A stretch of 63,981 nucleotides of DNA, the filler included, from Perkinsus olseni (taxonomy: Eukaryota), in the NCBI GenBank assembly GCA_013115125.1. It is 6 parts of 6 records of this genome, joined end to end, with 100 filler letters (N's around TTAATTAATTAA, not from the genome) between each part and the next. Parts side by side here need not be neighbours in the genome. Positions count along the whole stretch, not along the records: positions 43,614 to 54,397 come from JABANN010000860.1; 5 more parts are not named here. The stretch is one strand, 5' to 3'. A program made the position numbers. Positions 50,501 through 53,500 of this stretch are shown here, piece after piece; position 1 is the first letter of the stretch, and each line of letters starts with the position of its first letter.

Positions 50501-53500
50501 CGTGGCGATTGGCCTGAGCTGTCCCCAGGGCGCCTGTATGCGCTTTACTCTGAGTCTTGGGAAGGTTAGCAGTGGCAAGAAGGTGCTCATGGGCAACAAG
50601 TTTCATGTTGATTTCTATCCCCAGCCGGCCAGTGGGCCCTCGGATGGCAGTGCAGCTGCACCTGCTGGCGACAGCGGAATTGTGCAGGCCTTCAAGTACT
50701 CGGAGCTCAGCGTAACCCTTCACCTCATCGGCTGGATGGATGAATCGTATTAAGTATCTTGGAGGTCGAGGCAGTCGGATACAAAATAGGTTGACTTGCG
50801 TCTTATGACGAGAATAGTATAGAATATATTATCAGCTCGGCCACTGCAGATTATTCTACAGGCATTCTGTTCGACAAAACTACAAATCCATTTCGCTTTT
50901 CTCTTTTTTCACACCACCAGCTGTCATCCTTTTCGTCATCCATCCTGTCCTTGAGTTTATCAGTAGTCCTCCGCTGGGACCTCTTCCTCGCGTATCCTCG
51001 CACAAGCTGAGTGATGGCCGAGTCGACGATCACCAGCCTCAGCCAGCTTCGTATTGATTTTCCTGCGCATGGGTCATAGGCTAGATTTGCTGGCCTTCTG
51101 CCTTCTCGCTGCTTCTGCTATCCTGTGGGTTACCAGGGCGGCCAAGGAACCATCGCCATTGGTTGAAATAGAGAGAGCGGTGAACAACTCTCAATGGCAA
51201 CAGGCATCGGAGTTACTCAAACAGGAGGTGGTAGCTGGACGAGGTCCCGAACTTGACTTCAAGATACGCCAGGTAGTATACAGGAAGAGGCGGCCAAGCG
51301 ATTCTAGCTTGATTGGGCCAGCGTCACTCCGTCGTAGGGAACCTCCTCGAAGCCCTCATACTATATATATCGCACAAGTAGTTCTTAGCCTCATCAAACA
51401 CAGGCCCCAAACACCTTCGGTCGGGGTGGACGATGGTATACCCCTTTTTTAGCATGACTGATAAAGGCCCTCGAGCCACGGGAAAACGATGAGGGTGACG
51501 GTGGGCGTGCGATCTGTCAGATTGCGTCGAATCTGCACCATCAAGCTGACAACTTGGTGCGGTTGTTGGACAGGGACTACGCCATGGGCCATCACGCTAA
51601 AGTCACCCCCGCTATTCAGTGGGCACAGAACTCTACTCATGTTTTTATCAATATCAAATACTCACACAGATGGAATAGTCCAGGTGAGATAGGTCCCGGG
51701 TTCGATCCCGGCACCTGACATGTATGGTATTCGTGTAGGTGCATTGCACGTTACGGACCCTAGCTTAGCGGTTTCTTCCTGCTGTTTTAATTTCTCTGCG
51801 ACTGGCGAGCACTCGGGAGTTGTCAAGCAGTACATGCTGAGCTTTGAGCTCGCACATGACGTAGTGCCGTGTAGAGAGGATGATCAGAGTAATAGCGAGG
51901 GTTCGTGATCGGATCGTAGGAGGGCGTAGGTTCGATCCCTGACTAGTGAGATTCTCATGATTCTCGAGGCCTTCCTCGACTTGGAGGATCTCGCTTCGCT
52001 CCGCCTGCTCACATCACTACACGATCAGGTTGGTGGACTCAGTCGAGCGTTGGGCGGATGACTGTGACGCTCGAGAAGGCCGAGGGGAACCTTAAGTGGC
52101 GGCGGTTGGTGGCCGACCCTAAAAGAGTACGTACGGGAGTCAAATGATACGAGCGAGGACGGTAGATTCCTGAGGGAGCCTGAACATATGATAGAGGAAT
52201 CTGTGCTGCGTAGAGGGGTACTCTTGATTCGAGGGATGGGCCACCAACCACTGCTCCGCCGGAGCCTCCGGCCCGGAGGGCTATCATTTCTTCCTCACAA
52301 TTTTTCAGCAACCGTCATTGGGGCATGTAGGCCGCTGGCTGGACCTCGAGGAGCGCTATGCTCAAGAGATGTCCGCCTTACCCTACCAGAACGATACTGA
52401 CCGGCCGAAGCCTGCTTCTTCGACGCCAGCACCTTCTCGCCAGCTGCAGGGGGGTCGCTCGGATCGTGCGTGGGTGAAGATGGCTCGGTTCGCTCGAGCG
52501 AGATTGATACCGAAGTTCCTTCGAGTTTATCTGCCGAAATCGAAAGATTCTCCAGCCGTCGTTCTTGCCGCTGCGGGAGCGTTCTGGGCTGTGATGATGG
52601 CGACTGTGGTTGTAGTAATGAGGGCATACAACTTGAACAAGCAGCACAACGGCCGCAGATCGGTATCTGTCGACAAACGAGACTGACTCTCCCTGCGCAC
52701 CACCGGTCTTGTGTTGTGTGAGGCGAAAAGGTGATGAAGTGGCATGCAGCCTGGGTTCACTGGGATGGGTAGGTTGAATGGGCTTGGATGGCCTTTGAGG
52801 TTATCCGGGAGAACCTCGGGTAATTGTCCATCCCCAGATTTGTTACTTCCATCATCATAATGTGCAGCCCCTTTACTACAAGTGCTGGCCGCGTCCGCTG
52901 CTCCTCACCGGAGATAACGGAAATACCTGTCGAAGGAGGTCTAGGGCCTAGCTCCCCCGCGACTGTCGTCGAGCCTTCTCTACAGCGTCCAACGGAAGAG
53001 TGCGCTAGCTCCACGGTAATGGAAGGCTGAGCGAGGTCGTTTCAACCTCTTTTGTATCTTGCCAGCTTGAGCTCAAGATGTGCTCTGGATTTCGTCGTAT
53101 CAGGCTTCAACATCTTCTACTGTGGATGTCTCCGACACTCACTACAACCACGAAGTCCAAGTGTTGACGAACGCCTTAGTCGCTCTTATCGCCTGGCCCA
53201 TCACATTCGTATGTGTTGTAAGTGGTGACGCCACCGACGGCGTAGTGAATCCTCTCTCGCTCAGTTCCTTCCCTCACCCGTCAGCAGCGTCGTTCGCGGC
53301 AGTACTCGGCCTTTGGTGTATCGGACGACGGCGGTGGCCAGGGCCAGTGCTCGCGTTTTCGCTAGGACACTCCGAACCGTGTCCACGAAAGAGTCGAGAG
53401 TCGTAAGTCGGACTCCTTCACGACGGTATGTGATCAATTCCTTCCGGTAGGTGGTGATTCTCTTTGCGGAGCTTTGGTTGCGCATCTGCGCTCTGTTGAC

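What the first reader, a model, noticed from the sequence alone, without database searches (positions are those of the whole stretch)
51684..51970. Same tRNA T-arm-like intron fragments in an unrelated gene on another contig
Seen: in the CS-domain gene, the intron after RWNSP reads gtgagat-AGGTC-CCGGG-TTCGAT-CCCGG-CACCTGACA (51691-51720). The next intron carries AGGGC-GTAGG-TTCGATC-CCTGA (51921-51942). Occurrence on a separate contig argues for a genome-wide phenomenon clustered in particular genes, since I saw none in the RRM, LITAF or GST introns.
Basis: partly seen in the sequence, partly recalled or inferred. Interest (0 to 1): 0.7.

Follow-up and report, generated by a model that had tools for sequence, protein, structure and literature searches.

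The report
tRNA-gene relics inside tiny Perkinsus introns
Several very short introns of two genes of the shellfish parasite Perkinsus olseni are largely made of decayed copies of the last third of a tRNA gene, which are real and not due to chance, probably leftovers of tRNA-derived insertions rather than working RNAs.

Summary
Observation confirmed. Both stretches lie at the stated coordinates, inside introns whose removal is seen in RNA contigs of 4 of 4 runs laid. With four more in a calcium-dependent kinase gene on another contig of the window, there are six 30-nt pieces. Each has the layout of tRNA positions 44-73: variable loop, T arm with B box, 3' acceptor strand, discriminator.

- **Chance:** the extended motif occurs 5 times against 0.07 expected.
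- **Orientation:** all six lie in the sense of their host gene.
- **Share of the intron:** four make up 30 of 46-55 intron bases.
- **Not tRNAs:** there is no cloverleaf, no A box, no CCA, and the T stems are eroded.
- **Parent:** three align better than shuffles to the window's own tRNA-Ala(TGC) gene, also outside the T arm.
- **Organism:** Perkinsus olseni, by source names of the gene models and by the spliced leader.

Best reading (0.55): decayed tRNA-gene-derived inserts carried as passengers in spliced introns.

Rivals are retained B-box/TFIIIC sites, intron birth by such inserts, and an RNA-level role.

A genome-wide phenomenon could not be tested because no genome is held. Per-gene clustering is not significant among the 37 known introns (P about 0.10). 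My literature searches found no description.

The parts
51069..52686 (+). Host gene 1. A source names a relative 'CS domain-containing protein'. Coding exons: 51069-51272, 51521-51683, 51739-51888, 52029-52126, 52309-52686.
   Evidence: Exact mapping of gene model P0008. RNA contig joints seen in 4 of 4 runs. Source name. Pfam gave no hit on the single exons.
51684..51738 (+). 55-nt spliceosomal intron (GT..AG) that holds piece CS_i1.
   Evidence: The joint 51681>51737 skips 55 nt in X7, X8, X15 and X19. Sequence.
51691..51720 (+). Piece CS_i1, 30 nt in tRNA layout 44-73: variable loop AGGTC, T arm with B box GGTTCGATCCC, acceptor-like strand, final A. It starts 7 nt after the 5' splice site and ends 18 nt before the 3' splice site.
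   Evidence: Local alignment to the window's tRNA-Ala was reached by 0 of 500 shuffles.
51889..52028 (+). 140-nt intron that holds piece CS_i2.
   Evidence: The joint 51888>52029 is seen in 4 of 4 runs.
51921..51950 (+). Piece CS_i2: AGGGC, T arm with B box GGTTCGATCCC, and a decayed 3' part. It is the weakest of the six.
   Evidence: Alignment to tRNA-Ala is no better than shuffles (256 of 500).
38298..41616 (-). Host gene 2: calcium-dependent protein kinase type (Pkinase plus EF hand), 23 exons and 22 introns of 40-180 nt.
   Evidence: Pfam on exons. Exact mapping of gene model P0001. These introns rest on the gene model and GT..AG ends, not on RNA.
41254..41283 (-). Piece K_i3 in the 48-nt intron 41238-41285. 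The intron's GT is directly followed by the variable-loop-like AGGTC.
   Evidence: 13 of 500 shuffles reach its score against tRNA-Ala.
40779..40808 (-). Piece K_i6 in the 46-nt intron 40775-40820, with a palindromic T arm. Likeness to tRNA-Ala runs upstream into the anticodon-loop/stem region.
   Evidence: 3 of 500 shuffles. Gene models of another P. olseni assembly read through it with the same residues (P0004, P0015, P0017).
40680..40709 (-). Piece K_i7 in the 50-nt intron 40671-40720. Its acceptor-like strand matches that of tRNA-Ala at 6 of 7 places, and TTTT follows the final A.
   Evidence: 2 of 500 shuffles.
40085..40114 (-). Piece K_i11 in the 180-nt intron 39961-40140.
   Evidence: 34 of 500 shuffles.
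54203..54276 (+). The only intact tRNA gene of the window, tRNA-Ala(TGC), followed by a T run. It lies 2.5 kb downstream of piece CS_i1 and served as the comparison.
   Evidence: ARAGORN. Rfam 66.3 bits. Sequence.

Best explanation
The six pieces are decayed copies of the 3' third of tRNA genes: variable loop, T arm with B box, 3' acceptor strand and discriminator. At least some come from a tRNA-Ala-like parent. They sit in the sense orientation inside spliceosomal introns of two Perkinsus olseni genes.

They are not tRNAs and cannot be transcribed as such. They are removed with the intron and most likely have no present function. I read them as relics of small tRNA-gene-derived insertions, either 5'-truncated retrocopies of primary tRNA transcripts or DNA copied in during break repair. 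They persist in introns because that is where such an insert does no harm.

Shown here: the tRNA-like architecture, that it is not chance, the splicing of the two CS-gene introns, the orientation, and the decay. Inferred: the insertion mechanism, the parent, and the lack of function.
For: 1. **Architecture with exact spacing.** In all six pieces a variable-loop-like AGG(T/G)C (TGGGC in K_i6) precedes the T arm by 5 nt, and the piece ends 25 nt later. Five of six end in A, as does the window's tRNA-Ala (alignment A2). The pattern with variable loop plus B box has 5 matches against 0.07 expected.
2. **Likeness to the window's own tRNA-Ala(TGC) beyond the generic T loop.** CS_i1 was reached by 0 of 500 shuffles. 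K_i7 was reached by 2 of 500, including the acceptor strand. K_i6 was reached by 3 of 500, including the anticodon-loop/stem part.
3. **Not functional tRNAs.** ARAGORN and Rfam find only the true tRNA. No 5' half of tRNA-Ala lies elsewhere in the window. T-stem pairs outside the B box are largely broken. Folding z-scores of the short piece-bearing introns are -1.27, -0.43, -0.78 and +0.41, which is unremarkable.
4. **Derived from genes or primary transcripts, not mature tRNA.** None is followed by CCA, and K_i7 is followed by TTTT as the real gene is.
5. **Spliced out.** The joints are seen in 4 of 4 runs.
6. **A plausible source population.** The relative P. marinus is reported to hold over 500 copies of just five tRNA gene types (PMC3706591, sections 10 and 13 read). 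Contigs with other flanks start at the tRNA-Ala gene (table 7).
7. **The core of CS_i1 recurs elsewhere.** Its 31-nt core (51685-51715) recurs with unrelated flanks in contigs of 3 of the 4 runs laid (table 7).
Against: 1. All six are in the sense orientation (two-sided P 0.03) and none lies in clearly intergenic DNA of the window. A purely neutral relic should show neither bias, though n is small.
2. In four introns the piece fills 30 of 46-55 nt. A simple insertion into an existing intron of about 45 nt should have made it longer.
3. The B box is near-perfect in all six while the rest has decayed. This may be ascertainment, since I found them by the B box, or it may be selection.
4. No hallmark of a known insertion mechanism was found: no poly(A), no consistent target duplication, and no likeness between the pieces outside the T arm.
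5. The parent tRNAs of K_i3, K_i11 and CS_i2 are unidentified.
6. The Rfam tRNA model does not score the pieces.
Confidence: 0.55

Rival explanations
1. Retained B-box sites. The pieces began as tRNA-gene fragments but are kept because their B boxes bind TFIIIC without Pol III, as 'extra TFIIIC' sites do. They would act on chromatin or on Pol II transcription of the host genes.
For: Five of six pieces fit GGTTCRANYCC exactly and the sixth differs at one base, while stems and acceptor parts have decayed. No A box accompanies them. In C. elegans, TFIIIC sites without Pol III coincide with tRNA-pseudogene-like CeRep3 repeats, are over-represented in introns and are clustered (PMC6950938, passages read). 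The model scan shows no population of intermediate, B-box-damaged copies: the next hit after the six scores 16 bits.
Against: B-box integrity is how the pieces were found, so it is biased. Variable-loop and discriminator likeness is also kept, which TFIIIC binding does not need. There are no binding data. Six sites in 64 kb is too few to see selection.
Confidence: 0.15
2. Intron birth. Small tRNA-gene-derived inserts landed in exons in the sense orientation and were tolerated because the spliceosome of this organism removes them. It accepts introns of 40-55 nt with weak signals. On this reading the pieces mark young, tRNA-seeded introns, an introner-like process.
For: In four introns the piece is 30 of 46, 48, 50 and 55 nt, leaving 2-12 nt before it and 4-18 nt after it, too little for a previous intron. 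All are in the sense orientation. In K_i3 the GT donor abuts the variable-loop-like AGGTC, so the piece itself supplies a GTAGGT donor. In CS_i1 the acceptor-like end reads CTGAC 20 nt before the 3' splice site, like branch-site-like YTRAY words that I read by eye, without a count, in other introns. Splice signals here are weak, GTR..YAG. 24 of 37 downstream exons start with GT, so many introns are flanked AG|GT on both sides.
Against: The copies share no sequence beyond the T arm, have no terminal repeats and no consistent target duplication. This differs from described introner families as reviewed for Amoebophrya, Micromonas and Aureococcus (PMC7789003, passages read). Two pieces lie deep inside long introns (140 and 180 nt). 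Presence or absence in related species could not be examined. Exons flanking K_i6 and K_i7 are conserved in P. marinus and P. chesapeaki proteins, which says nothing either way without DNA.
Confidence: 0.12
3. RNA-level role. The T-arm-like hairpin in the pre-mRNA serves splicing control, is a substrate of T-loop-modifying enzymes, or gives rise to a small RNA.
For: Sense orientation in 6 of 6. A hairpin is predicted at the T arm in CS_i1, K_i3 and K_i6.
Against: Stems are eroded: K_i7 keeps only the two B-box pairs, and K_i11 keeps 3 of 5 counting a G-U. Folding energies do not stand out from shuffles or from the other short introns. There is no covariation to test with six unrelated copies.
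Confidence: 0.05
4. Chance resemblance in G+C-rich introns.
For: Rfam's tRNA model reports none of the pieces. CS_i2 alone aligns to tRNA-Ala no better than shuffles.
Against: 5 matches against 0.07 expected for the 18-nt pattern and 8 against 0.51 for the B box. Six sites fall into two clusters with P = 4e-5 under uniform placement.
Confidence: 0.02

Closest known systems
tRNA pseudogene fragments and tRNA-derived repeats in introns, for example CeRep3 / extra-TFIIIC sites of C. elegans (PMC6950938)
   Same: Derived from tRNA genes, carry a strong B box, are not transcribed as tRNAs, are over-represented in introns and are locally clustered.
   Different: CeRep3 sites keep both A and B boxes and are repeat-family members in long introns. 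Here only the 3' third is present (no A box), the copies differ from one another, and four of them make up most of a 46-55-nt intron. TFIIIC binding is untested.
Introner elements (Micromonas, Aureococcus, Amoebophrya and others; PMC7789003, and PMC11282704 from its search listing only)
   Same: Short inserted sequences that coincide with whole spliceosomal introns, in an alveolate relative of Amoebophrya.
   Different: Introners are families of near-identical copies, often with terminal inverted and direct repeats. These pieces share only generic tRNA features and show no such repeats. None of the papers I read describes a tRNA-derived introner.
tRNA-derived SINEs
   Same: tRNA-related sequence dispersed in genes, often in introns.
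   Different: A SINE has a tRNA-related head with A and B boxes, a body and a tail. Here there is no A box, body or tail, and only about 30-36 nt in all.
Dada DNA transposons of Perkinsus marinus, which insert into tRNA genes (PMC3706591)
   Same: Same genus. They show that tRNA genes there are numerous and a hub of mobile-DNA activity.
   Different: Dada elements are 4.7-11 kb, cut the tRNA gene in the A-box/D-loop region and lie in tRNA genes. Nothing of that kind is next to these pieces.
3' tRNA halves / 3' exons of pre-tRNA
   Same: For CS_i1 and K_i6 the likeness to tRNA-Ala begins near the anticodon loop and runs to the discriminator, the extent of a 3' half.
   Different: No CCA end. 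The start points differ among pieces. A DNA copy of such an RNA is inferred, not shown.

Membership tests
functional tRNA gene | Complete cloverleaf recognised by tRNA finders | tested here: not met
   ARAGORN and the Rfam tRNA model find only 54203-54276. At an 80% threshold ARAGORN gives 39 calls in the window, of which one overlaps a piece in sense (41255-41325). Its 5' part overlaps codons conserved in P. chesapeaki, so it is probably chance.
functional tRNA gene | A box plus B box internal promoter | tested here: not met
   The B box is present. No A-box-like word lies upstream of any piece at tRNA spacing. The only A-box-like word nearby (51761-51772) lies downstream, in exon 2.
tRNA-gene-derived fragment (pseudogene piece) | Variable loop, T arm, acceptor strand and discriminator in tRNA spacing | tested here: met
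   Ungapped 30-nt alignment of five pieces with the 3' end of tRNA-Ala; K_i6 needs a 1-nt shift. Pattern enrichment 5 against 0.07.
tRNA-gene-derived fragment (pseudogene piece) | Better match to a host tRNA gene than chance | tested here: inconclusive
   Against the single tRNA gene available, 3 of 6 pieces were reached by at most 3 of 500 shuffles, 2 of 6 by 13 and 34, and 1 of 6 by 256. The host's full tRNA set was not available.
introner element | Multi-copy family with sequence identity along the whole intron | tested here: not met
   Within the window the piece-bearing introns share only the T-arm core of 8-11 nt. Genome-wide copy number is not testable. One further 31-nt copy of the CS_i1 core exists in RNA contigs.
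introner element | Terminal inverted repeats and/or target-site duplication at the intron ends | tested here: not met
   The junctions repeat AGGTG (CS_i1) and AGGT (K_i6), but nothing is repeated at K_i3 or K_i7 (table 5). AG|GT flanks are common to most introns here.
tRNA-derived SINE | tRNA-related head with A and B boxes, body and 3' tail | tested here: not met
   Only 30-36 nt of tRNA likeness, with no A box and no tail or simple repeat.
extra-TFIIIC (ETC) site | B-box consensus | tested here: met
   Five of six pieces fit GGTTCRANYCC; K_i11 has one mismatch.
extra-TFIIIC (ETC) site | TFIIIC bound without Pol III | not testable with these tools
   Needs ChIP in Perkinsus.
retrocopy of mature tRNA / 3' tRNA half | Post-transcriptional CCA end | tested here: not met
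   None of the six is followed by CCA.

The most novel reading that the evidence does not exclude
In Perkinsus, fragments of tRNA genes (the 3' third, in sense) seed new spliceosomal introns. A 30-50-nt insert that brings a GT next to its variable loop and a branch-site-like acceptor end is simply spliced out by a spliceosome tuned to about 45-nt introns. The recognisable pieces would then be the youngest members of a tRNA-derived, introner-like stream of intron gain.
Probability: 0.12. Interest if true: 0.8.

Novelty: new variant of a known kind. Interest (0 to 1): 0.5.

Why it matters
tRNA-derived DNA in introns is ordinary in itself. What is unusual is tRNA-gene thirds that fill most of a 46-55-nt intron, always in the sense orientation, several per gene, in a lineage with hundreds of tRNA gene copies.

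If these are insertion relics, they are handy datable markers of intron turnover in perkinsids.

If the inserts created the introns, this would be a new, simple source of spliceosomal introns, and it could be tested by comparing Perkinsus genomes.

If the B boxes are kept by selection, they would be the first hint of TFIIIC-type sites inside genes of a myzozoan.

None of the seven literature searches that bear on this turned up a description. Supplementary files could not be seen, and most subscription journals are not in the library.

Tried and rejected
- **Rfam at permissive thresholds** on the whole window and on the two sub-regions: no tRNA hit at any piece.
- **Metagenome scan** for a 21-nt word of CS_i1: two hits, both inside what reads as a bacterial coding frame, with no tRNA.
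- **Whole genome:** none is held, so there was no genome-wide count, no host tRNA set and no orthologous introns.
- **Full-length decayed tRNA at K_i3** (relaxed ARAGORN): rejected. The threshold gives 39 calls in 64 kb, and the supposed 5' acceptor overlaps the codons for D-P-x-C, which P. chesapeaki also has.
- **P. marinus gene model P0009**: I first read its 11 odd residues after RWNS as read-through of the orthologous intron without a T arm. They align equally well to part of exon 2, so no conclusion was drawn.
- **Search for a protein holding the translated 31-nt core**: only 3 candidates, all orthologues.
- **Gene models of other P. olseni assemblies**: only K_i6 is read through, with the same residues. 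There is no view of the other pieces.
- **Home-made short-intron finder** to count introns in the rest of the window: it recalled 2 of 27 known short introns and was abandoned. The total intron number of the window is therefore unknown.
- **Likeness of the CS_i1 intron start to the intron part of the Perkinsus SL RNA** (primer sequences in PMC3101222): judged by eye only, too weak, dropped.
- **Earlier findings of this scan**: nothing on this genome or this feature.
- **Laying reads across both genes** failed because of the N spacer. The kinase-gene introns therefore have no RNA evidence.
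Full report
**What the window is.**
The 63981 bases are six stretches of about 10.8 kb joined by N spacers: 1-10819, 10920-21724, 21825-32623, 32724-43513, 43614-54397 and 54498-63981. No whole genome is held.

Gene models named Perkinsus olseni by their sources map exon by exon at 100% identity. P0001 maps onto the fourth stretch and P0008 onto the fifth.

RNA contigs that start at 51041/51045 and at 52836 carry a loose 5' end ...ATCTTGGCTCA (table 7). With the genomic AG, this is the 3' end of the Perkinsus spliced leader PmaSL1 printed in PMC3101222 (passages read). The organism is therefore a Perkinsus, most likely P. olseni.

**The observation.**
The quoted letters are at 51691-51720 and 51921-51942. 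The host gene is on the plus strand, with its coding sequence at 51069-52686. A source calls a close relative a 'CS domain-containing protein'; Pfam gave nothing on single exons.

The gene has four introns: 51273-51520, 51684-51738, 51889-52028 and 52127-52308. Each is skipped with GT..AG ends in contigs of all 4 runs laid. The first piece lies in the 55-nt intron and the second in the 140-nt intron.

**The second gene.**
On the fourth stretch, on the minus strand (41616-38298), lies a kinase with EF hands (Pfam on exons). It has 23 exons and 22 introns of 40-180 nt, from exact mapping of P0001 and GT..AG ends. There is no RNA evidence for these introns, because the one read-laying run could not span the N spacer.

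Four of its introns carry the same kind of piece:

| Intron | Coordinates | Length |
|---|---|---|
| K_i3 | 41285-41238 | 48 nt |
| K_i6 | 40820-40775 | 46 nt |
| K_i7 | 40720-40671 | 50 nt |
| K_i11 | 40140-39961 | 180 nt |

**Is it more than chance?**
- The B-box word GGTTCRANYCC has 8 matches against 0.51 expected, and 0 of 100 shuffles reach 8. One match is the true tRNA-Ala, one palindromic site counts twice, and one (7690, minus) is outside any gene I could define.
- The 18-nt pattern that adds the variable loop (GGKCNNNNNTTCRANNCC) has 5 matches against 0.07, and 0 of 100 shuffles reach 5. All five are in introns of the two genes.
- I built a covariance model from the six pieces plus the 3' end of the tRNA-Ala gene and searched all 63981 bases with filters off. 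It returns its seven training sequences (by construction) and two reverse-strand echoes of palindromic T arms. After those come 36593-36622 (16.2 bits, E 0.023) and 18890-18919 (E 0.56), with the remaining 13 of the 24 listed at E above 1. There is therefore no seventh clear piece in the window.
- Rfam's own tRNA model does not report the pieces at all.

**Anatomy.**
Five pieces align without gaps to the last 30 nt of the window's tRNA-Ala gene; K_i6 needs a 1-nt shift. The layout is a five-base variable-loop-like AGG(T/G)C, a 5-nt stem strand, a 7-nt T loop TTCRANN, a second stem strand, seven acceptor-like bases, and a last base. That last base is A in five of six, as in the tRNA.

Only the two stem pairs that belong to the B box are regularly intact. 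The outer three pairs are mostly broken. No piece is followed by CCA. K_i7 is followed by TTTT, as the real gene is.

All six lie in the sense of their host gene (two-sided P 0.03).

| Piece | nt before piece (from 5' splice site) | nt after piece (to 3' splice site) |
|---|---|---|
| K_i3 | 2 | 16 |
| CS_i1 | 7 | 18 |
| K_i7 | 11 | 9 |
| K_i6 | 12 | 4 |
| K_i11 | 26 | 124 |
| CS_i2 | 32 | 78 |

So in four introns the piece is 30 of 46-55 nt. The median of the 37 introns I could define is 48 nt.

**Parent.**
Local alignment against the only tRNA gene available, tRNA-Ala(TGC) at 54203-54276, gave these counts of shuffles that reached the real score:

| Piece | Shuffles reaching the score | Note |
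|---|---|---|
| CS_i1 | 0 of 500 | alignment extends 3-4 nt upstream of the variable loop |
| K_i7 | 2 of 500 | acceptor strand alike at 6 of 7 |
| K_i6 | 3 of 500 | extends to the anticodon loop/stem |
| K_i3 | 13 of 500 | |
| K_i11 | 34 of 500 | |
| CS_i2 | 256 of 500 | |

Part of these scores is generic T-arm likeness. The extensions outside it are what point to an Ala-like parent for three pieces. K_i3 and K_i11 share another stem (GTG.G) and probably have other parents. No 5'-half likeness to tRNA-Ala occurs elsewhere in the window.

**Recurrence elsewhere.**
In 3 of the 4 runs laid (X8, X15, X19), a contig matches only 51685-51715 and runs on into unrelated sequence on both sides (table 7). 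This is the core of CS_i1 plus the six bases before it. An identical 31-mer therefore exists in another expressed sequence of those samples. Which organism it belongs to, and whether it is exonic there, I could not establish; the table is truncated for X7. This is the only direct hint that the phenomenon goes beyond the two genes.

**Clustering.**
Placed uniformly on the DNA, six sites fall into at most two clusters with P = 4e-5. That mostly restates that they are in introns of intron-dense genes.

Among the 37 defined introns, 22 are in the kinase gene, 4 in the CS gene and 11 in other genes of the fifth stretch. Six carry a piece. The chance that none of the six is among the 11 others is 0.10. 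The rest of the window has no piece, but I could not count its introns, because my finder recalled only 2 of 27 known ones. Per-gene clustering is thus suggested but not shown.

**What it most likely is.**
The pieces are decayed copies of the 3' third of tRNA genes. The exact tRNA spacing, the variable loop and the discriminator argue for descent from tRNA genes rather than a free-standing B-box motif. The broken stems, the unremarkable folding and the absent 5' half argue against a working RNA. The missing CCA, and the T run after K_i7, argue for a gene or primary transcript as the source.

P. marinus is reported to hold more than 500 copies of five tRNA gene types, and transposons that target them (PMC3706591, sections 10 and 13). 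Raw material is therefore plentiful in the genus.

How the copies got there is inferred. It could be 5'-truncated reverse transcripts, or DNA copied in during break repair. I found no poly(A), no consistent target duplication and no likeness between copies beyond the T arm.

**What does not fit a plain relic.**
Three things do not fit: the sense bias, the absence from intergenic DNA, and the fact that the piece fills most of four minimal introns. They leave room for two bolder readings:
- The B boxes are kept as TFIIIC sites. The nearest precedent is the CeRep3 tRNA-pseudogene repeats of C. elegans, which are TFIIIC-bound, intron-enriched and clustered (PMC6950938).
- The inserts themselves became the introns.

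For intron birth, three points speak:
- Splice signals here are minimal, GTR...YAG.
- K_i3 takes its GT directly in front of the variable loop.
- CS_i1 has CTGAC at branch-site distance.

Against it, the pieces lack every family trait of described introners (PMC7789003), and two of them lie deep inside long introns.

**Literature.**
I ran seven searches: Perkinsus + intron + tRNA; introner + tRNA; Perkinsus + genome assembly + introns + transposable; intron gain + tRNA-derived + spliceosomal; Perkinsus olseni + genome + introns; Perkinsus + SINE + retrotransposon; and tRNA pseudogene / B box / TFIIIC / ETC.

None returned a paper that describes tRNA-like pieces in Perkinsus or other myzozoan spliceosomal introns. 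I judged this from listings, abstracts and the passages named above. Supplements were closed, and most subscription journals are not covered.

**Verdict.**
The most probable reading is ordinary in kind (tRNA-gene relics) but unusual in form. Its wider meaning hinges on a genome-wide and cross-species comparison that these tools could not provide.

Noticed in passing
window 51041-51046 and 52836-52837: RNA contigs begin here with a loose ...ATCTTGGCTCA end, the Perkinsus spliced leader. These are therefore trans-splice acceptor sites of two separate mRNAs. The public gene model P0008 fuses the two genes (exon 52309-52614 joined to 52776 onward), whereas the contigs of the first gene run on to about 52692-52696, past its stop codon.
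   Followed up: partly
37 introns in 38298-41616 (minus) and 45477-53671 (plus): The exon after the 3' splice site starts with G in 26 of 37 introns and with GT in most (T at +2 in 24 of 37). Many introns are therefore flanked AG|GT on both sides. Introns are tiny: median 48 nt, and 26 of 37 are at most 60 nt.
   Followed up: partly
window 51685-51715: An identical 31-mer with unrelated flanks on both sides occurs in contigs of runs X8, X15 and X19. In the frame that stays open through those flanks it would be coding (I read this frame by eye from the letters). Its origin (parasite or other organism) is unknown.
   Followed up: partly
window 54204 and 54326: Contigs with differing upstream flanks start at the tRNA-Ala(TGC) gene or just after it. 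Further copies of this tRNA gene therefore exist elsewhere (table 7).
   Followed up: no
window 43619-43649: A 31-nt word followed by a T run at the very start of the fifth stretch is shared with deep RNA contigs that have other flanks in three runs (X7, X8, X15). It is possibly part of an abundant small or ribosomal RNA.
   Followed up: no
window 7690-7700 (-), 21066-21075 (-), 36593-36622 (+): Three weaker B-box or T-arm-like sites outside defined introns. The first is followed by TTTTT. None has the variable-loop word, and they are compatible with chance.
   Followed up: partly
window 51761-51772: An A-box-like word (TAGCTTAGCGGT) lies in coding exon 2, 41 nt downstream of piece CS_i1. The pattern has 4 matches against 0.72 expected in the window, one of them the true tRNA. 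Probably chance.
   Followed up: no
window 39837-39881 (-): A 45-nt in-frame intron of the kinase gene is read through as 15 extra residues in the gene model of another assembly (P0010), an annotation difference.
   Followed up: yes
window 54446-56880 (-): Two long open frames (376 and 401 aa) that look to me like retroelement proteins. This is my reading only, with no family search run.
   Followed up: no
window 62439-62509: A palindromic hairpin that matches the MIR8001 model on both strands well below its gathering score (39.5 and 37.1 bits against 90).
   Followed up: no
window 4442 (-) and 9327 (+): Nearly identical 60-nt contexts on opposite strands of the first stretch suggest an inverted duplication.
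   Followed up: no
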